A stretch of DNA of 64,000 nucleotides from assembly GCA_030603165.1 (NCBI GenBank), contig JAUVYH010000001.1, positions 4,837 to 68,836 of the forward strand, read 5' to 3'. Each line of letters begins with the position of its first letter. Positions within the stretch are counted from its first letter, which is position 1. This DNA is from Fidelibacterota bacterium (lineage in GTDB: Bacteria; Fidelibacterota; UBA2242). This document shows, piece by piece, positions 2,131-50,397 of the stretch. The notes under the pieces were generated by a model, which had not been told where the DNA came from, ran no database searches, and saw only the letters and a program-made list of their open reading frames with translations. Made by a program: the position numbers and the translations under genes.

Positions 2131-5100
2131 ATGGACAAAAAATTTATATTAGTTATGCTTCTTTTGCTCTGCATGGTGCAGTACGTTTTTTCCGGAATCA
2201 CCGGTAAAATTGTTGGAAAAGTTACAGATACTGAGAGTGGAGAGCCATTGGTGGGTGCTAATGTTTTTATTAAGGGCACAACCATGGGAGCAGCCACTGA
2301 CTCGAACGGAGATTACTTAATTCTTAACATTCCGCCTGGCGTCTATACATTGGCGGCATCGATGATAGGCAACACAACCGTTAATCAAACTGACGTGTCT
2401 GTGTCTGTAGACCATACTGTTACTGTCGATTTTGCCTTACCACCTACAGTTATAGAGGGTGTGGAGGTTACAGTAGTGGCTGAGAGGAAAGTCATTAAGA
2501 TGGATATGTCTGCCAGTCAAGTCAGTATTAGCGCGTCGGATGTCGTGGAACTTCCCAACGCGACCAGCATTGAAGATGTCATTAATCTTCAAGTAGGGCT
2601 GGATTTTGATCCAACTACCAGAGGATATGATGAACAGGCAGAGGTGACTATCCGAGGGGGTGGAAGAGGACAGAACTCATTTATGGTTGATGGATTAACG
2701 ATGGTGGATAACCGATCAAACAGACCGATGATGATGGTCAATCTTAGCTCTGTAAAGGAAATTAACATCATTAAGGGAGGCTTTAATGCGGAATATGGTA
2801 ATGTTCGATCTGGATTAATTAACGTTGTTACCAAAGAAGGTTCTTCGACTGCATATAATGGTTCGCTTGAACTTCGGATGACCCCTGGCCACCTAAAACA
2901 TGCGGGTGAATCAATCTTTGATCCAAACAGCTACTATTTGCGGCCATATCTTGATCCTGCTGTATGTTGGAATGGTACCGCGAGTGGAAGCTGGGATGAG
3001 GCAACCCAGGCACGATATAATTCCTTTATGGGATGGAATGAATTTGCCAACACGTTAGAAGGTGTGACTCCGCAACAAGCCAGGGATATTTTCATCTGGC
3101 AGCACCGGGCTGAAGGCTCTGATGATCTTGGTCGGGAAGCGGGAAGCTACGGCGATAAGCCGGACTGGATTGCAGAAGCAAGTTTTGGCGGTCCGGTTCC
3201 CTTTATCAGTAAAAAATTAGGCGGCTTGAATTTTTTTGCTACTCATCGGACCAATAATGAACAGTTTGCACTGCCCACTAACAGGGACTACTTTACAGAA
3301 CAGAATTCTCAGTTAAAGCTATGCACTAAAATAACTCCGTCCCTGAAAGTTACGGTCGAGGGAGTATATGGAGAGATTCATACCGTTCAATCTGCTCCGC
3401 GTGGTTCCGGAATGGATGCCTATATGACAAGTGGAATGGATATACTCTATTCCCCAATTGCTACTGGTGATGATTATGTGCTCGGTCAGAACGCTGCTTT
3501 GTATTATCCTTCTGCCCTGAATCTATTCGATATTTATAGGTCTATGGTAGGCATAGCTATTGATCATGTTTTGAGCCCACGTACATTTTATAATGTGAGA
3601 ATCTCTCGGACTCGCGTTAAAAATCTTTGCACTGGTCCGGATAGATTTCGGGACAACACGACCATTCGAACTTTTGGTGACTTTGCCGTTGATGAAACAC
3701 CATTTGGATATCAGGTTGGTATCGAAACCATGTTTGATGGTATGTCTACAACCGGAGAGGGGTCTACCCGGGATTACTCGGAAGTCAATACCGTCAATGT
3801 TAAATTTGATATCACCAGCCAGGTCAACAAATACAATCAGATTAAGTCGGGATTGGAATATAATTATGATGATCTTGATGTTCACTACGAGCACAACCAA
3901 ATAGGTGATGCAGGTAATAACTGGATAGTTAAGTGGAGGAGATATCCGTACCGTGCCAGTATGTATATACAGGACAAACTTGAATTCAAGGGCATGATTG
4001 CCAATGTAGGTTTAAGAGCAGACTTGAATAATCCAAATTCAAAGGCATTCGTAACGGATAGATATTCCATGTATTTCCGGAAAAAATTTATGGATACGTT
4101 TCAAGATTTAGCTCCTTACGAAGATGCTAAAGTGCGCCTGAAACTTAGCCCTCGTTTAGGAATTTCTCATCCAATTACCGAAGATGCCAAACTTTACTTT
4201 AATTATGGTCATTTCTATTCGGTGCCAACATCTAATGAGATGTTTCTCATTATGAAACGGGCTCAAGGGCTTAGTGATATAGGCAATCCCAATGCTGAAT
4301 TAGCAAAAACAGTAGCCTATGAGTTAGGTGTTGAGTACAGTCTCTTAGACATGTTCCTGCTTCATTTGTCCAGCTATTATAAAGACGTCAGCGAACAACT
4401 TGCCAATATCCATTATGTCGGCTATGATGGAGGTGTCAACTATTGGTCTCGTGAAAATAACAATTACGAGGATATTCGAGGATTTGAGGCTAAAATTGAA
4501 AAGCGTTTTGGGGCATGGGTTACCGGATGGGTAAATTATAACTATATGGTGACTACATCCGGATATATTGGACGGCAGACCTATTACGAGGATCAAAGAA
4601 GGCAGGCGCAAGAAGGACTAATGAATCCGGTCCAGAATCGTCCGCTCGCACGTCCTTTAGCCCGCGCTAATATCACCATCACGAGTCCCAATGATTTCGG
4701 GCCGACAGTTGCAGGATTTAATCCAGCTGCTGGTGTCCGGTTAGATTTGCTTTATATCTGGAGAGCCGGTAAGTACGAGTCAATAGGTGATTATAGAATG
4801 TGGAATAAAGTGGGTGATGTCGAATTAATTGATGATTTGCAATGGAAAGGTCGGACCACTTTTGATTTAAGATTACGAAAAAAAATATCTTATATAAAAT
4901 ATGACTTTAGCTTGTATCTGGATATCGCCAATGTGTTTAACATAAAATACCTCGAAGAATCAGGCTTTGCAGACGCTGATGATAGAACCTCTTATATGAG
5001 ATCATTGCACCTGCAGCGGTACAACGGCGACGAGTTTGCGACTAAGGCAGAATATGAGGCTATGGACTGTATTGCCGGCGACGATAAGCCGGGAGACGTA

Positions 5101-5199
5101 AAGTCCGATGATAAACCTTACATAGATATGCCAGACCGCGAATTTCTTACCTATCTGAATCCTCGAACAATTACGTTTGGATTAGGAATTAATTTTTAA
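2131..5199 (+). CDS. TonB-dependent outer-membrane receptor with N-terminal carboxypeptidase-regulatory-like domain and plug domain
   Basis: Signal peptide; 'GKIVGKVTDTESGEPLVGANVFIKGTTMGAATDSNGDYLI' (CarbopepD_reg-like); plug region '...VTIRGGG..FMVDGLTM...'; C-terminal aromatic residue (..LGINF); 1022 aa; SD gagaggag upstream. Confidence 0.85.
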   Translation: MDKKFILVMLLLLCMVQYVFSGITGKIVGKVTDTESGEPLVGANVFIKGTTMGAATDSNGDYLILNIPPGVYTLAASMIGNTTVNQTDVSVSVDHTVTVDFALPPTVIEGVEVTVVAERKVIKMDMSASQVSISASDVVELPNATSIEDVINLQVGLDFDPTTRGYDEQAEVTIRGGGRGQNSFMVDGLTMVDNRSNRPMMMVNLSSVKEINIIKGGFNAEYGNVRSGLINVVTKEGSSTAYNGSLELRMTPGHLKHAGESIFDPNSYYLRPYLDPAVCWNGTASGSWDEATQARYNSFMGWNEFANTLEGVTPQQARDIFIWQHRAEGSDDLGREAGSYGDKPDWIAEASFGGPVPFISKKLGGLNFFATHRTNNEQFALPTNRDYFTEQNSQLKLCTKITPSLKVTVEGVYGEIHTVQSAPRGSGMDAYMTSGMDILYSPIATGDDYVLGQNAALYYPSALNLFDIYRSMVGIAIDHVLSPRTFYNVRISRTRVKNLCTGPDRFRDNTTIRTFGDFAVDETPFGYQVGIETMFDGMSTTGEGSTRDYSEVNTVNVKFDITSQVNKYNQIKSGLEYNYDDLDVHYEHNQIGDAGNNWIVKWRRYPYRASMYIQDKLEFKGMIANVGLRADLNNPNSKAFVTDRYSMYFRKKFMDTFQDLAPYEDAKVRLKLSPRLGISHPITEDAKLYFNYGHFYSVPTSNEMFLIMKRAQGLSDIGNPNAELAKTVAYELGVEYSLLDMFLLHLSSYYKDVSEQLANIHYVGYDGGVNYWSRENNNYEDIRGFEAKIEKRFGAWVTGWVNYNYMVTTSGYIGRQTYYEDQRRQAQEGLMNPVQNRPLARPLARANITITSPNDFGPTVAGFNPAAGVRLDLLYIWRAGKYESIGDYRMWNKVGDVELIDDLQWKGRTTFDLRLRKKISYIKYDFSLYLDIANVFNIKYLEESGFADADDRTSYMRSLHLQRYNGDEFATKAEYEAMDCIAGDDKPGDVKSDDKPYIDMPDREFLTYLNPRTITFGLGINF

Positions 5200-5237
5200 T
5201 TAGGTGAAAACTAAATAGAGAAGGAAGGAATACAATT

Positions 5238-7445
5238 ATGAAAAGAAATTATTTAATAATAGAACTTCTGCTAACATGTTTCCTATTTTCGTATAATATT
5301 GTATACGCGGGTTTCACCAAGAATATACAAGTTGGGAGTTATCAGACATTTGTCGATGACAATACCCATCAGGGTGAAACCTCAGTAGGCGATCGTGGTG
5401 CTATGTATCAGAATGCTTTTCACTGGGGTTGGCCTGCCTGTGCGGTACAGTTTTCAGGGTGGTACCTGGGCGCCAAAAACTGGACAGCAGAAGATGGAGA
5501 CGTATGGCCTGTGAAGCTCACTGGTGCGGCACCTGTCACGGTAAATGAGTTGCAAGCCCAGATGCCGGTAGCAGATGAGGACGGATATTTTATCAGAAAA
5601 TATGTGAGATATCGACCTCCCACGGTTGTCGTCGATGGCTTCGAAACAAATGAGCCGTTTCCATTGGAAGGTGATGAAGTCGCTCCCGATAAGATCCCGG
5701 GAACGGCAGATGTCATGGTAACATCAACAATTAATACCGATATGGGAGTCACGATAACTCAAAAAGTACTTGCCTGGAGCCAAAAAAATCACGATGATTA
5801 TATCATCTATGATTGGACATTCACCAACACGGGAAATATCGATCTGGATGAGGAAATTGAACTTCCAAATCAGACATTAGAAGGCGTTTACTTTCTCCGA
5901 TCAAGCAGGCTCGAACGATGGGATTCAGAATATTGGTATAGCGGTTTCGGGGAATATACAACAGATACGCTACGGATGCGCTATGCCTATCCAGCGAGGA
6001 GAAAAGGTGCGGACCATGATAATACCGGAAATGGTTTCTGGGCGCCACAACCGGGCTGGCTTTGGAATTCGCAGTCTGTCGGTCAGGCTATACTTCATGT
6101 TGATAAATCTGTGGACGATCCAACAGATGACTTTGATCAACCGGGTATGACCGGCACAGAGAATAGCGACCTTCTCTGGATTCGAAATGATCCTACCTCC
6201 ACCGGTCCCGCGGATTGGGCTCAGGTATATAAAGTAATGACAGAAGGATGGGTATGGCGAGGCAATGTACCCCGACTCACACAAGACAATGCCCCCGCCG
6301 GGATGACAGTACGCTCCGGATACCGTTCAGTGAGAATGCAGGATCTTGCCGTGCCTGGCACGAAATTTATTTTGGATCTCGACTGGGTTACCTACGGCGC
6401 CGCATATTTTTGGGATGCCGGTCCATACACGATGAAACCCGGGGATTCGTTCCGGATCGTCTGGGCGGATGGATTTGGAGTCATCAATCCGCTGAAAATC
6501 TGGGAAATTCAGGGAGCATGGGAACAGGGAACAGCCACACCACCTGAAGGGATGACATTTGACAATGCTACTGGAGTTGGTTTGCTTGATAACATGCCGC
6601 CCCCCTATAAAAATAATCCTGACCTGTATGATAATGATTATAATAACTGGTCCAGGGATTGTTGGATTTTTACAGGTATTGATTCTCTCATTCAAAATAT
6701 GAATGCCGCCCAGTGGAACGTGAGAAACAATTATAACGTGCCAATCCCGCCGCCGCCGCCATCAGTTACCGTCAGTTCAAAACCGAACCAGATCGTGATT
6801 GAGTGGGGTAATGAATCAGAAGCAGCGTCGGATTTTGCCGGTTACAGATTATATCGATCCGAAGGTTTCTGGTATGAAGGGCATATTCCATGGACTAATG
6901 AGACAAGGCATGGTAGGTGGGAACTTATTAGGGACTTTCATGGTAGCAGTACTCACAGTTATGAGGATACGGACGTGACCCGTGGTCTTGCCTATTACTA
7001 TTACGTAACCGCCTATGATGATGGTGAGAGCAATGGACCTGATGTCAATGGACAGAATCAAGTTCTTGAGAGTGGTGCTTTTCTAAATGTAACAAAACGC
7101 GCTGCATATCTAACCAGAGATGCAGGAAGCAAACTCGAAAATATTGTTGTCGTACCCAATCCATTTAATATTAGCGCTATAGATCTGCAATATCCAGGTG
7201 AGCCAAACAAAATAATGTTTTTGGAATTGCCCCCGGTTTGTACCATCAGGATTTACACCGAGAGTGGTGATTTAGTGAGAACCATTGAACATACCAACGG
7301 TTCCGGTGATGAAGCATGGGGCGTATTGGCGAATGAACACCTCGCCTCTGAAATAGGGCAGCTGGTCGTGAGTGGTATTTATATTGCCAACATTGAAACG
7401 CCGGACGGCGATAGCATCAATCGTAAAATCGTGATCGTAAGGTAA
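5238..7445 (+). CDS. T9SS-secreted surface protein: unknown ~480-aa N-terminal region, poly-Pro linker, FN3-like domain, type-A T9SS C-terminal sorting domain
   Basis: Signal peptide; 'PPPPPS' linker; FN3-like 'IVIEWGN...GYRLYRSEG...YYYYVTAYD'. C-terminus 'VVPNPFN...IRIYTESGDLV...SGIYIANIETPDG...RKIVIVR' matches the Por secretion tail pattern. Confidence 0.65.
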   Translation: MKRNYLIIELLLTCFLFSYNIVYAGFTKNIQVGSYQTFVDDNTHQGETSVGDRGAMYQNAFHWGWPACAVQFSGWYLGAKNWTAEDGDVWPVKLTGAAPVTVNELQAQMPVADEDGYFIRKYVRYRPPTVVVDGFETNEPFPLEGDEVAPDKIPGTADVMVTSTINTDMGVTITQKVLAWSQKNHDDYIIYDWTFTNTGNIDLDEEIELPNQTLEGVYFLRSSRLERWDSEYWYSGFGEYTTDTLRMRYAYPARRKGADHDNTGNGFWAPQPGWLWNSQSVGQAILHVDKSVDDPTDDFDQPGMTGTENSDLLWIRNDPTSTGPADWAQVYKVMTEGWVWRGNVPRLTQDNAPAGMTVRSGYRSVRMQDLAVPGTKFILDLDWVTYGAAYFWDAGPYTMKPGDSFRIVWADGFGVINPLKIWEIQGAWEQGTATPPEGMTFDNATGVGLLDNMPPPYKNNPDLYDNDYNNWSRDCWIFTGIDSLIQNMNAAQWNVRNNYNVPIPPPPPSVTVSSKPNQIVIEWGNESEAASDFAGYRLYRSEGFWYEGHIPWTNETRHGRWELIRDFHGSSTHSYEDTDVTRGLAYYYYVTAYDDGESNGPDVNGQNQVLESGAFLNVTKRAAYLTRDAGSKLENIVVVPNPFNISAIDLQYPGEPNKIMFLELPPVCTIRIYTESGDLVRTIEHTNGSGDEAWGVLANEHLASEIGQLVVSGIYIANIETPDGDSINRKIVIVR

Positions 7446-37736: not shown

Positions 37737-39020
37737 ATGGCTGAAAAATATATTATCGGAAACGGAATCATAACCGACGGCTTTTCGTTTCTGATTGAAG
37801 ACGGCGCTATAGAAATTGAAAACGGTATAATCAAGCAAATTGGCAAAACCGATGAATTGAAAAGTAAAAACGTGGAATTCTTTAATTTGCAGGGTCGGCT
37901 GGTTCTTCCCGGTTTGCTCAATCCCCATCATCACCTCTATTCGGCTTTGGCAACTGGAATTTCTCCAATCGGTGAAACCGATAATTTTACCCAAATTCTT
38001 GAAAATCTCTGGTGGCATTTAGACAAAAGTCTTGATGAAGAATCTATCTATTATTCGGCTCTTTACGGACTTATTAAATCGGTAAAATACGGTGTGACGA
38101 CCATATTTGATCACCACGCTTCCATGAATTACATTTCCGGGAGTCTTCGGCTAATTGAAAAGGCATTCAAGGAAATTGGCGTTAAAGGATTGCTATGTTA
38201 TGAAATCTCCGATAGAATGGGCGAGAAAGCGATACCTCAGCAACTGGACGAAAATATTACTTTCCGGGAAGATCATATTGATGATAAAAACGTTCATGGT
38301 TTGCTTGGATTGCACGCCAATTTTACACTAAGTGAAGAAACGTTAGCGTTGATCAAACAACGGAAACCGGCGGACCTGCCCATTCACATTCATTGCGGCG
38401 AAGACAAGGCGGATATGCAGTATTGTGTTGATCACGGCTATGACGGACCGGTGCATCGCCTGCATGAATTTGGACTTTTATCGCCTAACTCTCTGCTTGC
38501 CCATTGCATTCATCTATCGCCCAAGGATTATGACATTATTCGTGAAATTCAGCCGATTATCATTTCCAACCCGGAATCCAACGCCAATAATAACGTTGGT
38601 GAAATGGACCTGTCTAAAATTGAAAAATACTGCCTCGGCACCGATGGCATGACGGGCAATATACTCGGCACTATGCGTTCACATTTTCTTCGGCACAATG
38701 GAAAGATTAGCCAGCCGCTGGATATTCTATTTCAATATTCCGGAAACATTGTGAAACGGTTTTTCCCTGATTCCGGTGCGCTGGAGATCGGAAAAAACGC
38801 CGACCTGGCTGTCACAGATTATATCCCCGTGACGGGGATTAATCTTGATAACCTGTTTTATCATCTTATCTTTGGGGTCGAAGGACAAAAAATGTATATG
38901 ACGATCTCCGATGGAAAAATCCTATATAAAGATGGGGAAATTCAAACTATTGGCGAAGAAGAAATTATTGCAAAAGTAAAAAAAGCGGCTCAGAAACTAC
39001 ATAAAAAATACTATGAGTGA
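37737..39020 (+). CDS. ssnA: SsnA-like amidohydrolase (chlorohydrolase/aminohydrolase superfamily)
   Basis: 'LPGLLNPHHHLYSALATG' metal-binding HxH; 427 aa; position between the xdh large subunit and the ygfK-like gene, as in E. coli ygfK-ssnA. Confidence 0.65.
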   Translation: MAEKYIIGNGIITDGFSFLIEDGAIEIENGIIKQIGKTDELKSKNVEFFNLQGRLVLPGLLNPHHHLYSALATGISPIGETDNFTQILENLWWHLDKSLDEESIYYSALYGLIKSVKYGVTTIFDHHASMNYISGSLRLIEKAFKEIGVKGLLCYEISDRMGEKAIPQQLDENITFREDHIDDKNVHGLLGLHANFTLSEETLALIKQRKPADLPIHIHCGEDKADMQYCVDHGYDGPVHRLHEFGLLSPNSLLAHCIHLSPKDYDIIREIQPIIISNPESNANNNVGEMDLSKIEKYCLGTDGMTGNILGTMRSHFLRHNGKISQPLDILFQYSGNIVKRFFPDSGALEIGKNADLAVTDYIPVTGINLDNLFYHLIFGVEGQKMYMTISDGKILYKDGEIQTIGEEEIIAKVKKAAQKLHKKYYE

Positions 39021-42000
39021 AAATTTTTCAATTATCCCGATCCGACAACTTCTTTCCCAAATATTGAAATCAGGGGCAAAAGGTTCCATTTTCGGGATTT
39101 ACCAAAGTCAATTTTTTACACCAAATAAAAAAGATGTTTATCGAACATCTATGTTTGATCAGATGCTGGAAACTCCGTTAGGCGTTGCGGCGGGTCCGCA
39201 TACCCAATTGGCGCAGAACATCATTTCCGCCTGGCTCTGCGGCGCCCGGTATATTGAATTGAAAACCGTTCAGACACTTGACGAAATAGAGGTTTCCAAA
39301 CCGTGTATTGATATTCAGGACGAGGGCTACAATTGCGAATGGTCGCAGGAACTCAAAATCGAAGAATCCTTCGATGAATATCTGAAAGCCTGGATCATCA
39401 TCCATCTTTTGCGGCACAAGTTCGGCTGGATCGGCGACATCGGTACGATTTTCAACATGAGCGTCGGCTATGATATGACGGGAATTCTGAAAGACAATGT
39501 GCAGTGGTTTTTGGCTAAAATGACGAATTGCCGCGAAGAAAAGGATGCTTTTATAGATGAAATAAAAGAACTATATCCTGCCGTAAATGACATTGAAATT
39601 ACCGACTGTATTTCAAATAACGTTACTCTCTCAACGATGCACGGCTGCCCTTCCGAGGAGATTGAAAAAATCGGGCAATATCTTATCGAAGAAAAGAAAC
39701 TGCATACATTTATCAAATTAAATCCGACGCTTCTGGGAAAAGAGAAAATTCACAAAATACTGACGGAAAAATTGGGCTACGAAACTATCGTACCGGATAT
39801 TGCTTTCGAACATGACATAAGCTACCCCGCTGCCGTAAAGGTGATTCAATCATTGCAACAATCCGCTCAAAAACAGGGCGTTTTCTTCGGTGTGAAACTG
39901 ACTAATACACTGGAAGCAATCAACCATAAAAACATTTTCAGTGACGAATCCATGTATATGAGCGGCAAAGCGCTGCATCCGATCAGCATCAACGTTGCGC
40001 GAAAATTAAAGAATACTAATAAAATCAAAGATTTGCACATATCCTTTTGCGGAGGTGTGAATGCCTTCAATGTGGCTGATGTCCTGACTTGCGGTTTATA
40101 TCCGGTGACGGTTTGCTCGGATTTATTGAAGCCCGGTGGATATGCCCGGCTGCCGCAATACCTGGAGGAAATCGAAAAAACCTTTATCAGCTATCAAGCA
40201 ACCGATTTACAGGATCTTATTGTCAAGAAAAGTAAGCAAACGGACCTTACCGCCGGAGTGCTGGCGAACTTAAATGAATACGCCGACAACGTCGTCAACG
40301 AACCGGTCTATAAATCAGTCTTTACCGATATTAAAACTCAGCGAGAATTAACCGAATTTGACTGTATTGTTGCTCCCTGTGTGAATACCTGTCCGTCGAA
40401 TCAAAATATTCCCGAATACATGTACCGGACGGCTAAAGGTGAATTTTCCAATGCCTTTGATACAATTATGCTCACTAATCCATTTCCGTCGGTTACGGGA
40501 ATGGTATGCGATCACCCCTGTCAAAGCAAATGTACCCGGATTAATTATGACAATTCGCTGCTGATTCGCGAGATTAAGCGCTTTATCACCGAGAATGCAG
40601 TAAAAATGGACAGCATTGTTCCTAAACAAAAGATTAGTAAAAAAGTCGCTATTATTGGCGCGGGACCATCCGGATTATCTTGCGCCTGGTTCCTTGCTTT
40701 AGCTGGTTTTGATGTAGAGATATTTGAGACGAAAGAATTTCCCGGAGGGATGCTGGCGGACGCTATACCCTTATTCCGGTTGTCGGAAAAAGCTCTGAGC
40801 GATGACATAAACCGTATCCGGCGTCTCGGCGTTAATATCCATACGTCAACGCGAATCGATGTATCGGCATTTAATAAAATTAAAGACAAATCCGACTTTA
40901 TATATATTGCGGTCGGCGCTCAACAGTCGATGAAAGTTTCCATCGAAGGAGACGATGTCGAACGGGGCTTGCTGGACCCCTTAAAATTTTTATCGGCAGT
41001 GCGAAGATGCGAATCCATTGAATTGGGAAAAAAGGTCATCGTTCTCGGCGGAGGAAATACCGCCATTGACGCCGCCAGAACCGCTAAGCGATTTGTTGGA
41101 AAAAACGGTTCCGTAACCATTGCTTACCGCCGAACACGCAGAGAAATGCCCGCCGATCAGGATGAAATCCGGGCGGCGCTGGATGAAGGCATCGAACTCA
41201 TCGAACTGGCTGCTCCCGCTAAAATCAATTCAGTAAACGGTAGCGTCAGGTCACTGGCTTGTTACCGGATGAAATTAGGCGGCGTCGATGAATCTGGTCG
41301 TCCCCGACCGGTGAAAATCGATGGCAGTGAGTTTGAAATCGCGACTGATACGATCATACCGGCATTCGGGCAAACTGCGGATATTGATTTTATTGATCAG
41401 GAGCTACTGGAAGTCACTGATCTGGAAACCAGGGAAATCAAACCCCAAAATATATTTATCGGCGGCGATGCTTTCCGGGGCGCTTCAACGGTAATTAAAG
41501 CCATTGCCGATGGACGTAAAACCGCCGGGACGATTATCCAAAAAGCGGGAATTGATCTTGATGGAACGGTTCTGAGATCAACCAATAAAGAGCTAACCCG
41601 GGAACAGCATCACGAAAAAAGAGCGCAAATCGTACATGGAATCAAATCGGAAGAAACACCGCTGGCGGAGCGGGATTACTTTAGCTTGGTCGATCTGACG
41701 CTGACTGAAGAAGAAGCGCAGCGGGAAGCGTCGCGTTGTCTTTTCTGTGATGAAGTCTGCGATATTTGCGTGACCGTCTGCCCCAACCGGGCAAATTATG
41801 GTTACACCGTCGAGCCCTTTGAAGTCAAGCTGCAAAAGGCTGTCAATGATAACGGCAAAATCAAAATAGTGGATGATGGAATATTTAAGATCGAGCAGCC
41901 ATACCAGGTGTTAAATATCGACGAATTTTGCAACGAGTGCGGCAATTGTGCGACCTTTTGCCCGACCAGCGGCGCGCCTTACAAAGACAAACCCAGGGTG

Positions 42001-42267
42001 TTTTTGACTGAAAAAATCTTCCGAAATGCAGAAAGCGGCTATTATCTCAAATCGGGTAAATTGCTATATAAAATGCAAAATGAGATAAACTCCCTGGAAA
42101 TAAAAGAAGATCAATACTATTTCGAATCCGAAGCCATTACCGCGACATTAAATCGGGATGATTTTTCAATTATTGATATTAAATTTAAAGATGATATTTT
42201 AAAGGAAGCGTCACTGGTAAACGCCGTGAAGATGAGTGTGATTTTTTTTGCATTAAAGGATTTGTAA
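39013..42267 (+). CDS. ygfK: YgfK-like Fe-S/FAD oxidoreductase (putative selenate-reductase-type subunit; DPD-like TIM barrel, NAD(P)/FAD-binding and 4Fe-4S domains)
   Basis: 1084 aa. N-terminal DHOD/DPD-like 'PLGVAAGPHTQLAQNI'; 'CVNTCPSNQNIPEYM'; Rossmann 'VAIIGAGPSGLSCAW'; C-terminal ferredoxin 'CNECGNCATFCP'. Confidence 0.7.
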   Translation: MSENFSIIPIRQLLSQILKSGAKGSIFGIYQSQFFTPNKKDVYRTSMFDQMLETPLGVAAGPHTQLAQNIISAWLCGARYIELKTVQTLDEIEVSKPCIDIQDEGYNCEWSQELKIEESFDEYLKAWIIIHLLRHKFGWIGDIGTIFNMSVGYDMTGILKDNVQWFLAKMTNCREEKDAFIDEIKELYPAVNDIEITDCISNNVTLSTMHGCPSEEIEKIGQYLIEEKKLHTFIKLNPTLLGKEKIHKILTEKLGYETIVPDIAFEHDISYPAAVKVIQSLQQSAQKQGVFFGVKLTNTLEAINHKNIFSDESMYMSGKALHPISINVARKLKNTNKIKDLHISFCGGVNAFNVADVLTCGLYPVTVCSDLLKPGGYARLPQYLEEIEKTFISYQATDLQDLIVKKSKQTDLTAGVLANLNEYADNVVNEPVYKSVFTDIKTQRELTEFDCIVAPCVNTCPSNQNIPEYMYRTAKGEFSNAFDTIMLTNPFPSVTGMVCDHPCQSKCTRINYDNSLLIREIKRFITENAVKMDSIVPKQKISKKVAIIGAGPSGLSCAWFLALAGFDVEIFETKEFPGGMLADAIPLFRLSEKALSDDINRIRRLGVNIHTSTRIDVSAFNKIKDKSDFIYIAVGAQQSMKVSIEGDDVERGLLDPLKFLSAVRRCESIELGKKVIVLGGGNTAIDAARTAKRFVGKNGSVTIAYRRTRREMPADQDEIRAALDEGIELIELAAPAKINSVNGSVRSLACYRMKLGGVDESGRPRPVKIDGSEFEIATDTIIPAFGQTADIDFIDQELLEVTDLETREIKPQNIFIGGDAFRGASTVIKAIADGRKTAGTIIQKAGIDLDGTVLRSTNKELTREQHHEKRAQIVHGIKSEETPLAERDYFSLVDLTLTEEEAQREASRCLFCDEVCDICVTVCPNRANYGYTVEPFEVKLQKAVNDNGKIKIVDDGIFKIEQPYQVLNIDEFCNECGNCATFCPTSGAPYKDKPRVFLTEKIFRNAESGYYLKSGKLLYKMQNEINSLEIKEDQYYFESEAITATLNRDDFSIIDIKFKDDILKEASLVNAVKMSVIFFALKDL

Positions 42268-42315
42268 TTTTAACCTGATTAATTTACAAACCGCAGAGAA
42301 CGCAAAAAACATAGA

Positions 42316-42856
42316 GATATGATAAATAAAAAAGAATTTTTATTGATATTAGGAGAAGGTGATTGGAAAAATGGATTTCTCTAAACTGCGTAATATTACA
42401 ATCGGCAGAATCTTTTCCGAATTAAAGATTATCGAGCAGTGGGGACGAGGATTTTCTAATATTATTAAATCTTGTAAACAGTGTGAGAATATTGTTCCAG
42501 AATTTAAAGAAGAATTGTTGCAGTTTAAGATTATTTTTTGGAATAAGAAAATAGATAAAAGAGTCGGTGATAAGTTCGGAGAAAAGGTGGGTATAAAGGT
42601 CGGTGATAAGGTCGGTGATAAGGTGGGTAGAAAGGGTGGTCAGAAAGGGTGGTCAGAATTAACTGAACGACAGGAAGAAATATTAAATTTAATTGAACAA
42701 AATAACAAAATATCAAGAAAGCAATTATCGGAAATATTAAATATAAACCCTTCCGCTATCCAAAAACACATAAATAAACTAAAACAGAAAGGTCTTCTTA
42801 AAAGAATCGGTCCGGCAAAAGGTGGATATTGGGAGATTGTTTCCGATGCCCAGTAA
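42316..42856 (+). pseudogene. Internally deleted copy of AlbA_2/HATPase_c_4 HTH protein (N-terminal 16 aa fused out of frame to C-terminal ~165 aa)
   Basis: 42316 'MINKKEFLLILGEGDW' matches 'MNKKELSLILQEGEGY' of 43339. ORF 42359..42856 matches the C-terminal third of 43339..44712 (..KLKQKGLLKRIGPAKGGYWEI vs ..KLKQEGKLKRVGSAKGGYWKV). Confidence 0.65.
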
Positions 42857-43338
42857 ATACCCAGAAACTACCCGGAAAAAATTACAATGAATGGTTTTAG
42901 TTCGGAGAAATGTTGGTCAGAAAAGGTAGGCAGAAATGGTGGGTAGAAAAAGTGGTCAGTAAATACCCAGTAAATATTTACACCGAATGAGTATTCACAA
43001 TTTGTTCGGAGAAAGTTCGGAGAAAAGGTGGGCAGATAATAAACAGAAATCTAAAATATCACTGGAATGTCACCACTTGTCACCAGATGTCACTACGATT
43101 TAAAAAATGTAGATTAATATCAAATATGGAAAGAAAGATTGCACTAGAGGATTTGATGAGTCAAACTTAAGAAATATGAGAATGTTTTATCTAACATTTC
43201 CAAAATGTAACGCACTGCGTCACGAATTGAGTTGGACCCATTACTGCTGTTTTAATAAAGTTGAAAATTAGGAATTAGATAGAGAATTAACCAGAGAAAG
43301 ACAAATGATTGAATTGGAAAGAAGATTGGGGAAAAAAG

Positions 43339-44712
43339 ATGAATAAGAAAGAACTATCTTTGATATTACAAGAAGGTGAAGGATACTTCACAGAATTCAA
43401 AGAAGGACTTTCGGGTGTTGATAAAGATTTTGTTGCATTTGCAAATTCTTCTGGAGGTAAAGTATTAATCGGTGTTACTGATGACGGAAAAGTTAAAGGC
43501 ATAACAATAACAAATAGAATAAAATCTGAAATCCAAAATATTTCAAGAAATTGTGATCCAGAAATAAAACTTTTCGTTAAATCCTTTGAAAACATTCTTA
43601 TTGTAGAAGTAAGAGAAGGTAAGGATAAACCATATAAATGTTCATCAGGATTTTACAAACGGATAGGTGCAACATCTCAAAAAATGACAAGAAATGAAAT
43701 CTTAAGTTTCTTTAAATCTGAAGGTAAAGTAAGATTTGATGAACTTATAAATACAGAATTTAAATATCCCAAAGATTTTAACAGAGATAGGCTAAATATC
43801 TTTTTGGAATTAGCAGGACTTTCTAAAACATTATCAATTGATAAAATTCTCACAAGTTTAGGAGTGGTAGAGCATCAAAACGGAAATTTATATTTTAATA
43901 ATGCAGGTGTTCTCCTATTTGCAAAAGAACCTCAGAATATTATATCCTGGTCTGTGTTTACAGTAGTATTATTTAAGGACAAAGAAGGAGTTGATGTAAT
44001 TGATAGAAAAGAAATAACAGGATCATTATTTGAGATCATTGAGCAAGTAATGGGATTTGTGAAATTATATACAAAAGTTGCCTATAGAATTACTGGAAAA
44101 CCTCAAAGAGAAAATATATATGAATATCCATTTGAAGCAATTCGGGAAGCTGTCATAAATTCTGTTATGCATAAAGATTATTTTGAACGTGGACATAATA
44201 ATATACTGAAATTTTTCCCGGATAGAATTCAAATAGAAAATATCTGGGTCAAGCCACAGAACTTTATTCTGGGTAAAACTGTTTTTAGAAGAAATCACCT
44301 TATTGCTGATCTATTCTCTCGTATAAATTTTGGTGAGAAACTGGGTTCAGGTGTGAAAAGAATGAGGGATGTCTGCCAGAAAGAAAATTCTCCCTATCCT
44401 GAAATAGAATATACTAACACTCATTTTTATATTGTATTCAAGCAAAGTAAAGAATATTTGAAATTAGAGAGTATTACCCCAAAAACTACCCAAAAAACTG
44501 GGGTTAAAACTGGGGTTAAAACTAGGGTGAAAACTAGGGGGGAAATAATAAACCTTATTAACGAGAACTCTAAGGTAACCATTCGAGAACTTGCTGAAAG
44601 AACGAGTTTGACTGTTAAAGGAATTGAATGGAATATTAAGAAACTTAAGCAAGAGGGCAAATTAAAAAGAGTAGGATCTGCTAAAGGCGGATATTGGAAA
44701 GTGATAAAATGA
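43339..44712 (+). CDS. AlbA_2 (divergent AAA/Schlafen-like) + HATPase_c_4 + C-terminal wHTH protein, 'RecG-like' putative transcriptional regulator
   Basis: 'YFTEFKEGLSG...FANSSGGKVLIGVTDDGKVKGI' AlbA_2 N-domain; C-terminal wHTH; internal (TGVK)n tandem peptide repeat 'TTQKTGVKTGVKTRVKTRGE'. The ORF track starts at 43309, but the homologous remnant supports 43339. Confidence 0.65.
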   Translation: MNKKELSLILQEGEGYFTEFKEGLSGVDKDFVAFANSSGGKVLIGVTDDGKVKGITITNRIKSEIQNISRNCDPEIKLFVKSFENILIVEVREGKDKPYKCSSGFYKRIGATSQKMTRNEILSFFKSEGKVRFDELINTEFKYPKDFNRDRLNIFLELAGLSKTLSIDKILTSLGVVEHQNGNLYFNNAGVLLFAKEPQNIISWSVFTVVLFKDKEGVDVIDRKEITGSLFEIIEQVMGFVKLYTKVAYRITGKPQRENIYEYPFEAIREAVINSVMHKDYFERGHNNILKFFPDRIQIENIWVKPQNFILGKTVFRRNHLIADLFSRINFGEKLGSGVKRMRDVCQKENSPYPEIEYTNTHFYIVFKQSKEYLKLESITPKTTQKTGVKTGVKTRVKTRGEIINLINENSKVTIRELAERTSLTVKGIEWNIKKLKQEGKLKRVGSAKGGYWKVIK

Positions 44713-44828
44713 AATTTTTGTGTGAAAAGAAAGAAGAAATATGAATAAAAAATTATACGAAGAAAAAAAAGAAAAAGTAAAAGCTGGCTTGGAAGAATAT
44801 TTCTCTAATGGTGTAAGAAAGGAAAAAA

Positions 44829-45149
44829 ATGATTATCAAAGAATCAGTGAAAATTGAAATAAAAGAGATTATTGAAAAATTCAATAGAGAAAAATTTGCA
44901 AGTAAAGATGTTTTTTATTTCCCGAAATTTAAGAAGAATTATTTATATCTATTTATAAATAGATACGGGGATATCGATCCTATGTGCCGATTAAAATATA
45001 ATGGCAAAATGACAAACTGGGATTTCGAGATCTTCAAATATTCATCGGAAACTTATACTGATGATATTTTCCTTATGCCGGGAGCAGAAGAAGTTGATGG
45101 TACAATCAAGGGAGCAATGCTCGCAGGTTTAGAACTTTATCCTGTTTGA
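44829..45149 (+). CDS. Hypothetical protein (106 aa), no recognizable domain
   Basis: ORF with reasonable codon usage following the AlbA_2 gene; weak RBS. Confidence 0.35.
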   Translation: MIIKESVKIEIKEIIEKFNREKFASKDVFYFPKFKKNYLYLFINRYGDIDPMCRLKYNGKMTNWDFEIFKYSSETYTDDIFLMPGAEEVDGTIKGAMLAGLELYPV

Positions 45150-45225
45150 AAATAAATCAAAATAATAATCTGTGCGTATCTGTGAAAATCCGTGGAGAAA
45201 AAAAAAGAAAAGGAGATATATAAAG

Positions 45226-46247
45226 TGAACTACACAAAATCACTAAAAGGTAAACACCTTATCACAACACAGGATTGGGGAAAAGAAGAACTGGATATTG
45301 TTCTTAAGCTTGCAAAGGAAATGAAGGAAAACCGCTTTCATCATCCGTTATGTAAATCACTGGAGAATAAAAGTTTCTTTATGTTTTTCTACAATCCCTC
45401 GGTAAGGACCCGGCAATCTTTTGAGATAGCGGCTACCGAGTTAGGCGGACACGCCCTGTTTTTAGAGCCAAAATCCATGCGGCTTAAAACGGCAACATCA
45501 GCGGGAGAAACAATTGAAGACGCCGCCAAAGTAATGTCAAGATATGCCTGTGGTCTGGGCATCAGAATACTCGAGGATAAAATTCCGCATTATGGCGCCG
45601 GCGAAGACCTGATTCGGGAATATGCGCAGTATTCAACTATTCCAATCGTGTCCATGGCGCATGATAAATATCATCCATGTCAGGGGCTGGCTGATATAAT
45701 GGGAATTCAAGGGCATTTGGGCGAGCTTAAAGGTAAAAAGACGTTACTGACATGGGGACATGGCGCTCTTGCCCGGTCGTGGTGTTCGGTTCAGGAATAC
45801 CTGCTAATGGCTTCGAGATATGGGATGTCCATTAATCTTGCGCATCCTGAAGGTTATGATTTGGATCCGCAAGTAATCGAGCAGACAAAAAAGAATTGTG
45901 AACAGAATTCAGAAGAATTTAATATCACAAATGACGTGCAAGAGGGATATAAGGACGTCGATGTTGTCTATTCAAGAAACTGGATGAGTCCCCAGGCTTA
46001 TAGGGATGGTCAATTGCATAAAGAGCCGGAGATTGAAAAAGCATTACAGTTCAATGAATGGATATGTGATGCGGAAAAAATGAGATTAACAAATGACGCT
46101 TTATACATTCATCCGATGCCTGTTGACCGGGGCAATGAAGTTACGGATGAGGTCGCGTCAAGCCCTCATTCGATTATATACGATGTTGCCGAAAACAGAC
46201 TGCATGTTCAGAAAGCGGTGATGGCGTTGACAATGGGTGAATATTAA
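45226..46247 (+). CDS. ygeW: YgeW-like knotted carbamoyltransferase (OTCase/ATCase fold), paralog 1
   Basis: 'SVRTRQSFE' (STRTR-type carbamoyl-phosphate motif), 'KYHPCQGLAD' (HPxQ), 'INLAHPEGYDLDP'. GTG 45226 has SD aaggag; the ORF track start is 45192. Confidence 0.75.
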
Positions 46248-49032: not shown

Positions 49033-50397
49033 ATGATTGATCGAACGATTCTAAAAGATTTGCGTAAGTGGGCAATTTCAAATCCCCGGAAACCGCTGAT
49101 TTTGCGAGGCGCCCGTCAAGTTGGTAAAACAACTGTGGTTGATATATTTTCAAAGGAATTTGATCAATATATCTATTTAAATCTGGAAAAGGATTTTGAT
49201 ACAGAGTTTTTTAAAAGAAAACTCCCGGCAAGAGAGGTTCTTCAGGCAATTGCGATTGACAAAGGGGTAAATATCACAGCAGGTCGGACACTTATCTTTC
49301 TGGATGAAATCCAAAATTCGGCTGAAGCAGTGACAATGCTGCGTTATTTTTTTGAAGATACTCCGGAATATTTTTTCATTGCCGCCGGTAGTTTGTTAGA
49401 AATAATGCTGGAAAATAAAAAGATAAGTTTTCCGGTAGGCAGAGTAACATACTTGTATATGTATCCGTTAACATTTAATGAATTTACAAAGGCAGTTGGG
49501 GAAAAACAGGCTCTGAAATATCTATTTCAGATACCCTGTCCGGAATTTGCGAATTTCAAATTATATAAACTGTTTCATCTCTATACATTAGTTGGTGGAA
49601 TGCCGGAAGTTGTGAGTAAATATATCGAGACACAGGATATCGTATCGTTAGGGTCGGTCTATAAAGATTTGATAACCGCTTACATCAATGATGCCGGTAA
49701 ATATGCTCGTACGAAGCAATTTGCGCATATATTGCGTTATGCAATTGAATCAGTTCCTTTTGAAGCCGGTCGTCGAATCAAATTCGAGGGATTTCATCAG
49801 TCAAATTATCGATACCGGGAAATGGCGGAGTCAATGCGGAGCCTCGAACGGGCGATGTTGATCCGGATTATATATCCCACAACATCTGTTAAACCGCCAT
49901 TAATACCCGATTATCGAAAATCACCGCGTTTACAATATCTGGATACGGGGTTATTGAATTTTCAGGTCCAATTGCAGAAATATTTTTACCAGTATAATGA
50001 TCTACATGCCTTCTATCAGGGAATTCTCGCGGAACACATTGCTTATCAAGAGATTATCGGTACAGATAATAGTGCAGATTCAAAACCGGCTTTTTGGGTG
50101 AGGGAAAAGCGCCAGTCCAATGCGGAAGTGGATTATTTGCTTCAATATAAAAATTTACTGATCCCGGTTGAAATTAAAGCCGGGAAAAGCGGAACACTTC
50201 GGTCGCTGCATCAATTCGTCGACGCTGCCGACCACAATTATGCTATTCGTCTTTACGCCGGGTCATTGAAAATTGAAAAGACAAAGACTTTATCCGGAAA
50301 ATCTTTTATACTATTAAATTTACCATATTTTTTAGCAGGTCAGTTAAACAATTACGCTGATTGGTTTGTCAAACAAAATAACAAAAAAGAAAGTTGA
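49033..50397 (+). CDS. AAA-family ATPase with DUF4143 C-terminal domain (AAA_14/DUF4143 'orphan ATPase')
   Basis: Walker A 'LRGARQVGKTT', Walker B 'LIFLDEIQ'; 454 aa; stop overlaps the TTG/ATG start region of the next gene. Confidence 0.75.
   Translation: MIDRTILKDLRKWAISNPRKPLILRGARQVGKTTVVDIFSKEFDQYIYLNLEKDFDTEFFKRKLPAREVLQAIAIDKGVNITAGRTLIFLDEIQNSAEAVTMLRYFFEDTPEYFFIAAGSLLEIMLENKKISFPVGRVTYLYMYPLTFNEFTKAVGEKQALKYLFQIPCPEFANFKLYKLFHLYTLVGGMPEVVSKYIETQDIVSLGSVYKDLITAYINDAGKYARTKQFAHILRYAIESVPFEAGRRIKFEGFHQSNYRYREMAESMRSLERAMLIRIIYPTTSVKPPLIPDYRKSPRLQYLDTGLLNFQVQLQKYFYQYNDLHAFYQGILAEHIAYQEIIGTDNSADSKPAFWVREKRQSNAEVDYLLQYKNLLIPVEIKAGKSGTLRSLHQFVDAADHNYAIRLYAGSLKIEKTKTLSGKSFILLNLPYFLAGQLNNYADWFVKQNNKKES

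What the first reader, a model, noticed from the sequence alone, without database searches (positions are those of the whole stretch)
42316..45149. Tandem AlbA_2/HATPase_c_4 wHTH genes (one internally deleted) with different tandem tetrapeptide-repeat linkers and echo repeats in the spacer
The intact 458-aa protein and the remnant share N- and C-termini. At the same linker position, however, they carry different DNA tandem repeats: (ggtgataaggtc)n encoding VGDK repeats versus (aaaactggggtt)n encoding TGVK repeats. Fragments of the first repeat (gttcggagaaa, ggtgggtagaaa, ggtcag) recur in the 42860..43030 spacer. The block looks AT-rich and interrupts the ygfK-ygeW gene order. AlbA_2-domain ATPase/HTH proteins are frequent in defense islands, so this could be a variable, slippage-prone sensor or regulator module.
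Basis: partly seen in the sequence, partly recalled or inferred. Interest (0 to 1): 0.5.

Follow-up and report, generated by a model that had tools for sequence, protein, structure and literature searches.

The report
Repeat-tethered winged-helix on Schlafen defence genes
A worn-down anti-phage island holds one intact and one truncated Schlafen-nuclease/ATPase gene, and their odd tetrapeptide repeats prove to be a widespread, apparently undescribed hallmark: slippage-prone 12-13-nt DNA repeats that always precede one kind of DNA-binding winged-helix module.

Summary
Window 42.27-45.22 kb is an AT-rich (about 30% GC) remnant of a defence island between ygfK-like and ygeW-like genes of a probable Cloacimonadota genome.

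Gene 2 (43339-44712) is an intact prokaryotic Schlafen nuclease + GHKL ATPase + winged helix (wHTH). Gene 1 (42359-42856) is a chimera, not a simple internal deletion. It joins 14 codons of a gene-2-type paralogue to the last ~165 codons of a different paralogue that is 477-493 aa long in relatives. The spacer "echoes" are the decayed linker of a second repeat+wHTH module, followed by a DUF1016 fragment.

The repeats are not peculiar to this locus. In 80 genomes from many bacterial and archaeal phyla, 91% of such wHTH modules are directly preceded by mostly perfect 12-nt or 13-nt tandem repeats, against 0 of 237 control windows.
- Unit number varies in frame among near-identical genes.
- Whole modules are swapped, duplicated and left as fragments.
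- Unit DNA is conserved beyond the protein level and is read in different frames.

Most likely the repeats encode a variable-length disordered tether for a DNA-sensing arm. A cis-acting DNA role is not excluded. The gene family is known; I found no description of the repeat hallmark.

The parts
39013..42267 (+). ygfK-like oxidoreductase; left flank of the island
   Evidence: Pfam Fer4_20 and Pyr_redox_2. Orthologues precede the island in L001 and precede a DUF1016 gene in L100.
42319..42384 (+). Leftover 5' end of a gene-2-type Schlafen gene (MINKKEFLLILGEGD, then out of frame to a stop)
   Evidence: Window 42325-42362 is 92% identical to the start of the gene-2 orthologue in L001. 78% identical over 49 nt to window 43331-43379.
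42359..42856 (+). Open 165-codon remnant of the gene-1-type paralogue: HATPase_c_4 C-half, repeat linker and wHTH of the INPSAIQKH class. The fusion junction is at about 42362.
   Evidence: Pfam. Window 42362-42400 is 95% identical to the interior of the 477-aa gene in L003. Full-length orthologues are 477-493 aa. dN/dS against them is 0.11-0.21.
42563..42658 (+). Linker array of the remnant: 12-nt units (VGDK/FGEK/VGIK) followed by two 13-nt units AGAAAGGGTGGTC read as GRKGGQKGWSE
   Evidence: TRF and the repeat finder family D1. Orthologues carry six 13-nt units, five of them perfect in L001/L002.
42857..43040 (+). Spacer echoes: decayed linker of a second repeat+wHTH module. Segment IPRNYPEKIT..., 13-nt array at 42906-42963, then ..NEYSQFVRRKFGEKVGR at 42986-43036.
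   Evidence: Matches the inter-module linker of the two-wHTH homologue P0008, TPTKYPEKLTIDEYAQLVRRKVGEKVGEKVG. Matches the post-stop regions of L006, L087 and L089. TRF.
43129..43268 (+). DUF1016/YhcG N-terminal domain pseudogene fragment
   Evidence: Pfam DUF1016_N, E 2.3e-7. Window 43146-43338 is 91% identical to L003 9808-10000, where a 150-aa DUF1016_N ORF is called.
43339..44712 (+). Intact Schlafen nuclease + GHKL ATPase + wHTH gene (457 aa); nuclease motif E14-x4-E19-x-K21 at 43378-43401
   Evidence: Pfam. E19 is invariant and E14 and K21 nearly invariant in 40 homologues. Fold matches to 3LMM and human SLFN N-domains. 83-89% identical orthologues in Cloacimonadota.
44473..44544 (+). 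Linker array of gene 2 (TPK TTQK TGVK TGVK TRVK TRGE); predicted disordered
   Evidence: TRF 44494-44539, period 12 x3.8, 94% matches. pLDDT <50 for residues 377-394. Two units more than in the orthologues of L001, L003 and L087.
44545..44709 (+). wHTH module of gene 2 (LTVKGIEWNI class, ending KRVGSAKGGYWKV)
   Evidence: HTH_24, E 9.9e-9. pLDDT about 82-86. The same class with the same TRVK DNA unit occurs on an Aliarcobacter plasmid.
44829..45149 (+). Orphan 106-aa ORF; in relatives it is the last gene of an N6_Mtase/Eco57I + Methylase_S module
   Evidence: Only two protein clusters known. Context in L092-L095. No Pfam, NCBIfam or PADLOC hit.
45225..46247 (+). ygeW-like carbamoyltransferase; right flank (probable GTG start at 45225, 340 aa)
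   Evidence: Pfam OTCace_N and OTCace. Homologues are 340 aa. AAGGAG lies 8 nt upstream of the GTG.

Best explanation
What it is. The block is a reduced copy of a defence island. In related Cloacimonadota the island reads RadC, Schlafen-ATPase gene 1, variable cargo, Schlafen-ATPase gene 2, (RadC), restriction-modification genes, orf106. In this window gene 2 is intact. Gene 1 survives only as its last ~165 codons, fused to the first 14 codons of a gene-2-type paralogue. The RadC and restriction-modification genes are gone.

What the repeats are. Both genes end in the same kind of module: a run of 12-nt units (or 13-nt units used in threes) followed directly by a small winged helix ending in ..RIGPxKGGYWE. 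The repeat run encodes a disordered tether.

How the region changes (shown).
- Units are gained and lost in frame, most plausibly by replication slippage, so tether length differs between close relatives.
- Whole repeat+winged-helix modules are exchanged between genes, duplicated in tandem and left behind as fragments.
- The spacer echoes are one such leftover.

How it probably works (inferred by homology and analogy).
- The tethered winged helices are the DNA-sensing or regulatory arms.
- Tether length and module identity set which DNA, and in what geometry, the oligomer can hold. This parallels the TAEL 12-bp repeats that set half-site spacing in EcoR124 HsdS.
For: Domains, motif and fold.

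Island layout in relatives: L001/L002, L003, L087 and L093/L094.

Chimeric junction. Full-length gene 1 orthologues.

A second module as the origin of the echoes: P0008, L006, L058 and L049, L015.

Repeats as a hallmark of the module.
- 91% of 94 linker windows score >=12, against 0 of 237 control windows in the same ORFs.
- Period is 12 in 57 of 97 modules, 24 in 11 and 13 in 10; most arrays are perfect.
- Homologues with the same body but another C-terminal HTH family lack repeats: near-perfect tetrapeptide repeats (>=~2.5 copies) in 30 of 85 KGGYWE-type versus 1 of 32 other C-termini.

In-frame copy-number polymorphism within >=90%-identity clusters and at this locus.

Module swapping: among pairs 80-90% identical in the body, 41% are <35% identical in the last 62 aa. 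P0152 carries a different module within the P0054 cluster.

The tether is predicted disordered.

Family biology: PMC13056530 and bioRxiv 10.64898/2026.05.29.728809. TAEL precedent: PMC3874165.
Against: - No experiment shows that this protein defends, oligomerises or binds DNA. In PMC13056530, defence was found only for a DUF262 fusion and an Ig-like fusion, not for the HisKinase fusions tested.
- A pure tether model does not explain why unit DNA is conserved at synonymous sites (88% versus 47%).
- It also does not explain why the same 9-mer persists in different frames and at different spacings.
- The tether is predicted disordered, not a rigid ruler like the helical TAEL repeat.
- The AlphaFold model is of moderate quality (mean pLDDT 68.5).
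- The slippage mechanism is inferred from the pattern, not observed.
Confidence: 0.55

Rival explanations
1. The arrays are cis-acting DNA elements as well as, or rather than, a protein tether. Each repeat unit would be the cognate binding site of the winged helix encoded right behind it. The module would thus carry its own operator or docking platform wherever it moves. The site is hidden in a linker whose amino-acid sequence is free to vary.
For: - Between lineages whose wHTH are <=85% identical, array codons are identical in 134 of 153 cases, against 638 of 1363 at conserved wHTH residues.
- The same cyclic unit GGTGGTCAGAAA is read as GGQK, RWSE or VVRK/GGQK/RWSE.
- 24 of 25 INPSAVQKH-class modules have >=2 copies of GGTGGTCAG (<=1 mismatch) at spacings of 12, 13, 18, 21 or 33 nt. 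This holds in Slfn and Fic hosts. Only 3 of 73 other modules do.
- Unit class tracks recognition-helix class.
- Q codons in arrays are CAG 11: CAA 2, against 248: 309 elsewhere in the same ORFs.
- Homologous GHKL domains tetramerise, which would present several wHTH to several units.
Against: - Unit and helix lie within 100 nt of each other, so co-inheritance alone gives the covariation.
- The pair counts are not phylogenetically independent.
- No recurrent extra copies occur in promoters or elsewhere in the +/-3 kb held. Outside hits are mostly decayed downstream modules.
- L006 combines a type-A-like array with another wHTH class.
- A 12-nt spacing is out of phase with the DNA helix.
- No binding data exist.
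Confidence: 0.25
2. Truncated remnants and downstream orphan modules are silent cassettes. They would be used to replace the C-terminal module of the intact gene by recombination, a specificity-switching system like hsdS cassette shuffling.
For: - 20 of 94 modules lie in short internal ORFs that keep only the C-terminal part.
- The window remnant is still open and shows dN/dS of 0.11-0.21, like full-length pairs.
- Methanosarcina loci carry chains of array+wHTH units behind a full-length gene.
- Module swapping is rampant.
Against: - Copies are in direct orientation with no recombinase or inverted repeats nearby.
- Several downstream modules carry stops or frameshifts.
- The window's two modules and their flanks are only 32% identical at protein level, too divergent for homologous exchange.
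- Low dN/dS is equally explained by recent truncation.
Confidence: 0.1
3. The repeats and echoes are functionless debris. They would be low-complexity expansions tolerated in an unconstrained linker of decaying mobile genes.
For: - The tether is predicted disordered.
- The island is visibly eroded: chimera, DUF1016 fragment, lost RadC and RM genes.
- The peptide sequence of the linker varies freely.
Against: - Repeats occur in 91% of modules, against 0 of 237 control windows.
- They are absent when the same body carries another HTH family.
- Arrays are mostly perfect in very distant taxa.
- Units are conserved beyond the neutral expectation.
Confidence: 0.07
4. The 13-nt units make an ON/OFF phase-variation switch. 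Gain or loss of one unit would frameshift the winged helix off the protein.
For: The unit length is not a multiple of three, and arrays of 4-6 largely perfect units exist.
Against: All 10 evaluable 13-nt arrays (L001, L003, L004, L084, L085, L087-L091) keep the wHTH in frame. Unit numbers are 6 or 4 according to lineage, and no out-of-frame allele was seen. All four members of the one 13-nt-type cluster examined (P0016) are 457 aa.
Confidence: 0.03

Closest known systems
Prokaryotic Schlafen nucleases (pSlfn), HisKinase-HTH architecture (Perez Taboada et al., Nat Microbiol 2026, PMC13056530)
   Same: PF04326 domain with the Ex4(E/D)xK motif, fused to a His-kinase-like ATPase and a C-terminal HTH. 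Located in defence islands. This architecture makes up 19.2% of 5,930 pSlfns.
   Different: That paper showed defence only for DUF262 and Ig-like fusions. The HisKinase-HTH class is untested. A search of its main text for 'repeat' and 'linker' found no mention of a repeat linker, module swapping or truncated copies.
'Schlatpase' supradomain and SLFN-pAgo RzAgo (bioRxiv 10.64898/2026.05.29.728809)
   Same: SLFN (PF04326) + GHKL (PF13749) pair. The PADLOC pAgo model aligns to residues 28-435. The paper notes that most Schlatpase proteins are small, with nothing else or a short C-terminal HTH.
   Different: Here the sensor is a tethered wHTH instead of an Argonaute core. ATP-driven tetramerisation and tRNA cleavage are extrapolated, not tested.
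EcoR124I/EcoR124II HsdS TAEL repeats (reviewed in PMC3874165)
   Same: A 12-bp unit encoding four residues sits inside a DNA-recognition protein of a defence system. Unit number differs between variants and changes in frame.
   Different: TAEL repeats are helical, lie between two target-recognition domains and change the spacer of the recognised site. Here the repeat is predicted disordered, precedes a single wHTH, has 2-8 units and its effect is unknown.
Simple-sequence-repeat contingency loci and hsdS cassette shuffling in restriction-modification systems (the first is the subject of PMC7383803, abstract seen; the second is from my own knowledge)
   Same: Slippage-prone repeats and partial gene copies associated with defence genes.
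   Different: No frameshifting alleles. No inverted cassettes or recombinase.
PDB 3LMM, DIP2311 of Corynebacterium diphtheriae (structural genomics)
   Same: Best whole-chain fold match to the model (Foldseek E 1.6e-15).
   Different: Only 14-17% identity. The entry description gives no function. Global TM is only about 0.3 because domain orientations differ.
Iteron-binding winged-helix Rep proteins (my own knowledge; a lead, not tested)
   Same: Winged-helix domains that bind arrays of direct repeats.
   Different: Iterons are 17-22 bp, non-coding and lie at replication origins. Here binding is hypothetical and the repeats are coding.

Membership tests
Prokaryotic Schlafen nuclease (pSlfn, PF04326) | Match to the SLFN_AlbA_2 domain above the curated cut-off | tested here: met
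   Gene 2: 70.3 bits against a cut-off of 25.3, E 2.6e-19. The remnant has no such domain.
Prokaryotic Schlafen nuclease (pSlfn, PF04326) | Catalytic Ex4(E/D)xK motif | tested here: met
   E14-GYFT-E19-F-K21 in gene 2. E19 is invariant and E14 and K21 are >=90% conserved in 40 homologues. The motif definition comes from PMC13056530. The remnant keeps only the first E.
Prokaryotic Schlafen nuclease (pSlfn, PF04326) | Schlafen nuclease fold | tested here: met
   Foldseek hits to human SLFN12, 14, 5, 11 and 13 N-domains at E 1.6e-4 to 7e-3. [quoted passage not shown]
Prokaryotic Schlafen nuclease (pSlfn, PF04326) | Phage-triggered tRNA cleavage and phage defence | not testable with these tools
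   Needs expression, phage challenge and tRNA assays.
Schlatpase supradomain (SLFN + GHKL ATPase PF13749) | Both domains in one chain, in that order | tested here: met
   SLFN_AlbA_2 at residues 5-127 and HATPase_c_4 at 300-377. His-kinase catalytic-domain fold matches are weak: E 0.03-0.06, probability 0.44-0.93.
Schlatpase supradomain (SLFN + GHKL ATPase PF13749) | ATP-dependent oligomerisation | not testable with these tools
   Known for RzAgo only.
Defence-island resident gene | Neighbouring known defence genes in this and related loci | tested here: met
   Relatives carry AbiEii, N6_Mtase/Eco57I + Methylase_S, AAA_14/DUF4143, DUF4365 and a type I RM operon. In the window itself only remnants lie within the block, and a PDC-S01 gene lies 4 kb away.
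Phase-variable contingency locus (ON/OFF by repeat slippage) | Alleles whose repeat number puts the downstream reading frame out of register | tested here: not met
   10 of 10 evaluable 13-nt arrays are in frame. The 12-nt arrays cannot frameshift.
EcoR124-type repeat ruler | 12-bp unit whose number varies in frame between close variants | tested here: met
   Clusters of P0045, P0071, P0116 and P0067. Window gene 2 against its orthologues.
EcoR124-type repeat ruler | Rigid helical repeat between two DNA-recognition domains | tested here: not met
   Residues 377-394 have pLDDT <50 and no regular structure. Only one wHTH follows the repeat.
EcoR124-type repeat ruler | Unit number changes DNA specificity | not testable with these tools
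   Needs binding assays.
Pseudogene (for ORF 42359-42856) | Loss of essential domains relative to full-length orthologues | tested here: met
   Lacks the Schlafen domain and most of the ATPase. Orthologues are 477-493 aa.
Pseudogene (for ORF 42359-42856) | Relaxed selection (raised dN/dS, stops, frameshifts) | tested here: inconclusive
   The ORF is open. dN/dS is 0.11-0.21, against 0.08-0.13 among full-length orthologues. Recent truncation cannot be told apart from retained function.

The most novel reading that the evidence does not exclude
The tandem units in front of this winged-helix module may be a portable, frame-independent DNA element that co-evolves with the recognition helix. They would be the module's own binding sites, embedded in the coding sequence of a linker. 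Schlafen-ATPase and Fic proteins across Bacteria and Archaea would then carry both a DNA-binding domain and its docking array as one mobile cassette.
Probability: 0.25. Interest if true: 0.85.

Novelty: new variant of a known kind. Interest (0 to 1): 0.6.

Why it matters
Schlafen-ATPase-HTH proteins are the second most common architecture of a newly recognised anti-phage nuclease family. What their HTH does is unknown.

This analysis shows that the HTH comes as a mobile cassette. The cassette has an obligatory array of mostly perfect, copy-number-variable repeats, shared with Fic proteins and present from Nanoarchaeota to Bacteroidales.

That gives three direct experimental handles on how the sensor arm works:
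- unit number;
- unit sequence;
- module identity.

It also raises a testable question: is a coding repeat conserved for its DNA rather than for its peptide?

For genome annotation, it explains the many short "DNA-binding" ORFs and odd spacers next to such genes. They are module remnants.

Tried and rejected
- ON/OFF phase variation by the 13-nt units. A metagenome scan for >=3.7 perfect units gave 8 loci, and every evaluable array was in frame.
- Operator copies in promoters. I searched each locus for its own unit outside the linker. Hits were almost all decayed downstream modules, and none recurred upstream.
- RNA element. Rfam found nothing at E <= 1 over 41500-46000. There is no tRNA in the window that could serve as an integration site. 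The promoter and terminator scan was at chance level.
- Phage origin. The 12/13-nt GGTGGTCAGAAA repeat is absent from 2.9 M viral contigs. Only 29 viral loci encode the module.
- Arrays as the crossover points of module swapping. In P0054 versus P0152, similarity ends just upstream of the array (..EY[LM]KLAG), so the array travels with the wHTH.
- Exact look-ups of the window's own proteins found no record.
- No solved structure is detectable by sequence.
- No NCBIfam model fits gene 2.
- Literature searches for the repeat peptides and for tetrapeptide repeat + winged helix returned nothing relevant.
- Planned but not run: folding the C-rich/G-rich units of the gene 2 linker as RNA. I dropped it because the orthologues lack the C-rich/G-rich pairing pattern.
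Full report
**1. What is in the window**

The ORF map, Pfam scan and composition profile show an AT-rich block (GC about 0.28-0.33) between two flanking genes. These are a ygfK-like oxidoreductase (39013-42267) and a ygeW-like carbamoyltransferase (probable GTG start at 45225). Flanking GC is 0.40-0.50.

The block holds these features:
- A 165-codon ORF (42359-42856) with only the C-terminal half of HATPase_c_4 plus an HTH_24 winged helix.
- A 480-nt spacer.
- An intact 457-codon gene (43339-44712) with SLFN_AlbA_2, HATPase_c_4 and HTH_24.
- A 106-codon orphan ORF (44829-45149).

The first linker runs from 12-nt units (42563-42628) into two perfect 13-nt units (42629-42658). The spacer has 4.5 units of the same 13-mer (42906-42963) and two 11-nt units (43004-43025). 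The second gene has 3.8 units of AAAACTAGGGTT (44494-44539). Eight of the 13 window-wide near-matches to the 13-mer fall in 450 nt. This clustering is not chance.

**2. The remnant is a chimera**

Related contigs from Cloacimonadota carry two different paralogues in tandem. These contigs are L001/L002, L003 (which is the same contig as L005), L004, L087 and L089.
- Gene 1 is 477-493 aa, begins MKELLSKQE... and has a wHTH with recognition helix INPSAVQKHI.
- Gene 2 is 449 aa, begins MNKKELSLILQEGEGYF and has a wHTH with LTVKGIEWNI.

BLASTN places window 42325-42362 on the 5' end of gene 2 orthologues (92%). It places 42362-42400 inside gene 1 orthologues (95%). The remnant therefore joins 14 codons of a gene-2-type copy to codon ~319 onward of gene 1. 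It has lost the Schlafen motif.

The remnant is still open. Its dN/dS against full-length orthologues is 0.11-0.21, similar to 0.08-0.13 among those orthologues. The truncation is either recent or the piece is still used.

**3. The spacer**

- Window 43129-43268 is a DUF1016/YhcG N-domain fragment (E 2.3e-7). It is 91% identical to the same fragment between the two genes in L003.
- Window 42857-43040 translates, across frames, to IPRNYPEKIT..., a 13-nt array, then ..NEYSQFVRRKFGEKVGR.
- This matches the linker between the two winged helices of the two-module homologue P0008, TPTKYPEKLTIDEYAQLVRRKVGEKVGEKVG.
- It also matches the post-stop regions of L006, L087 and L089.

The echoes are thus the decayed linker of a second repeat+wHTH module. 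The same kind of leftover occurs elsewhere. Methanosarcina loci L058 and L049 have chains of array+wHTH units behind a full-length gene, some with stops. L015 has an internal deletion joining two modules.

**4. The island**

In relatives the layout is RadC, gene 1, cargo, gene 2, (RadC), N6_Mtase/Eco57I + Methylase_S, orf106. The cargo is AbiEi/AbiEii, an AAA_14/DUF4143 gene or the DUF1016 fragment.

The island sits after ygfK in L001, after recX/NIF3 in L003 and after an aldehyde dehydrogenase in L087 and L093. The closest relative of the flanks is L100 (ygeW 93% identical). It has only a split DUF1016/YhcG gene between ygfK and ygeW. The junction is therefore a variable insertion site, and the window holds an eroded version of the island.

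**5. The family**

Gene 2 has the motif E14-x4-E19-x-K21. Its predicted fold matches PDB 3LMM across the whole chain, human Schlafen N-domains and, weakly, His-kinase catalytic domains.

Perez Taboada et al. show that prokaryotic Schlafen domains are anti-phage tRNases. They report the HisKinase-HTH fusion as 19.2% of 5,930 proteins, and found defence only for DUF262 and Ig-like fusions. A 2026 preprint names the SLFN+GHKL pair "Schlatpase". It shows that ATP binding drives tetramerisation and nuclease activation in SLFN-pAgo, and notes that most members are small with at most a short C-terminal HTH. Searches of both main texts for relevant terms turned up no mention of a repeat linker.

**6. 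The repeats are a hallmark of the module**

Among the 120 best homologues, most of those ending in ..KGGYWE have 4-residue periodic linkers. The repeat types go with the type of wHTH. Those with the same body but another C-terminal HTH family have none. Near-perfect repeats occur in 30 of 85 versus 1 of 32.

A genome scan with an alignment of the wHTH alone returned 80 loci. They range from Nanoarchaeota, Methanosarcina and ANME to Bacteroidales, Spirochaetia, Brocadia, Elusimicrobia and Omnitrophota. Findings:
- In 91% of 94 modules the 186 nt spanning the wHTH start (150 nt upstream, 36 nt into it) hold a tandem repeat of score >=12. The figure is 0 of 237 for control windows in the same ORFs.
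- Among all 97 module hits, the period is 12 in 57, 24 in 11 and 13 in 10. Most arrays are perfect, with 2-8 units.
- Hosts are Schlafen-ATPase proteins, Fic-like proteins and others.
- A search of 1.84 billion representatives finds proteins with up to 11 tandem wHTH modules. One has three array+wHTH units in a row.

**7. Dynamics**

- Within >=90%-identity clusters, unit number differs by whole units exactly in the array. Examples are TREK/TRGK 3 versus 2, and TTQK/TAQK 2, 3 or 4. A repeat-free control cluster shows no such steps.
- Window gene 2 has two units more than its orthologues.
- Among pairs 80-90% identical in the body, 41% are <35% identical in the last 62 residues.
- One 90% cluster contains a member with a different module. 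Its similarity ends just before the array.
- Twenty of 94 modules lie in short internal ORFs like the window's remnant.
- All evaluable 13-nt arrays are in frame. This argues against ON/OFF switching.

**8. An unexplained layer**

The 13-nt unit GGTGGTCAGAAAA taken three at a time encodes VVRK-GGQK-RWSE. This is one DNA unit read in all three frames. The 12-nt version is read as GGQK in some lineages and RWSE in others.

Grouped by peptide, array codons are identical between lineages in 88% of comparisons. The figure is 47% at conserved residues of the adjoining wHTH. These pair counts are not independent.

For the INPSAVQKH class, 24 of 25 modules carry >=2 copies of GGTGGTCAG (<=1 mismatch) before or at the wHTH start. 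This holds whatever the frame, spacing (12-33 nt) or host protein. Only 3 of 73 other modules do. Unit class tracks recognition-helix class.

This pattern fits a DNA-level role, such as the module's own binding sites. Tight linkage could also produce the covariation. I found no extra copies in promoters.

**9. Verdict**

- The gene family is known.
- The window's copy is an eroded island.
- The repeat+wHTH cassette, its turnover and its DNA-level conservation appear undescribed in the searchable literature.
- The tether/ruler reading is the best supported (0.55).
- The portable cis-element reading is the most novel one not excluded (0.25).

Noticed in passing
window 49033-50397 (+): An AAA_14 + DUF4143 ATPase gene matches the PADLOC candidate defence family PDC-S01 at E 4.9e-170. 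It sits in a second lower-GC patch (about 0.36-0.39) after the second carbamoyltransferase-like gene. A paralogue of the same architecture is the cargo between the two Schlafen genes in L087.
   Followed up: partly
window 44829-45149 (+); L092-L095: The 106-aa ORF is an orphan, with only two 90% clusters in 5.8 billion proteins. In relatives it always follows N6_Mtase/Eco57I + Methylase_S. In the window the RM genes are gone and it directly follows Schlafen gene 2.
   Followed up: partly
window 44741-44857 (+); L003 9481-9933: A short ORF, MNKKLYEEKKEKVKAGLEEYF..., begins right after gene 2. It resembles the start of the DUF1016_N ORF that follows gene 1 in L003 (MSKILYEGKKEEVKVEPEEFL). Each Schlafen gene seems to have been followed by the same kind of gene. 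The window copy is cut short and overlaps orf106 in another frame at an A-run.
   Followed up: no
window 43067-43093: A 10-nt tandem repeat, ATGTCACCAC x2.7, lies between the echo repeats and the DUF1016 fragment. It is unexplained.
   Followed up: no
L001 5861-6550, L003 7326-8015, L087 4983-5672 and 10418-11155, L093, L094: A RadC (JAB-domain) gene lies immediately upstream of Schlafen gene 1, 2 nt apart, in every relative. A second RadC follows gene 2 in L001 and L087, so the island is bracketed by RadC copies. Both are missing from the window.
   Followed up: no
L058 2850-3650 (Methanosarcina hadiensis chromosome); L049 2950-3700: Behind a full-length gene ending in (SSEK)6-wHTH lie further LGEK/WGEK arrays, a second wHTH with an internal stop, and the start of a third SSEK module. 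In L049 the segment between the wHTH and the next gene (hsdS-like start) is duplicated around an inserted stand-alone module.
   Followed up: partly
P0325 (1182 aa), P0326, P0327, P0373, P0328: Some proteins are made of 3 to 11 tandem copies of this wHTH module, a few with signal-peptide-like N-termini. P0328 is three consecutive LVDG/LVEG-array + wHTH units.
   Followed up: no
L097 (Aliarcobacter cryaerophilus plasmid pCNAC48) 5992-7335; L096 (Parabacteroides distasonis) 4798-6129: On the Aliarcobacter plasmid a Schlafen-ATPase-wHTH gene sits inside a type I RM operon: hsdM, RhuM, hsdS, KAP NTPase, the Slfn gene, hsdR. In Parabacteroides two such genes are embedded in a glycosyltransferase cluster, one with a perfect (ERVN)4 array.
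   Followed up: no
L100 6697-7743: In the closest relative of the flanking genes, the ygfK|ygeW junction holds only a DUF1016_N ORF (110 aa) and a separate YhcG_C ORF (162 aa). This looks like a split DUF1016 gene, and there are no Schlafen genes.
   Followed up: no
window 45192-45225: The mechanical ORF for the ygeW-like gene starts at GTG 45192. Homologues are 340 aa, and an AAGGAG lies 8 nt before the GTG at 45225, so the real start is probably 45225.
   Followed up: partly
model m95f362f0f436, residues 400-457: Among solved structures, the C-terminal winged helix alone is closest to Z-alpha (Z-DNA-binding) domains (4KMF target-normalised TM 0.83, 1QBJ 0.70) and to PapI/PefI. This may only reflect the generic small wHTH fold.
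   Followed up: no
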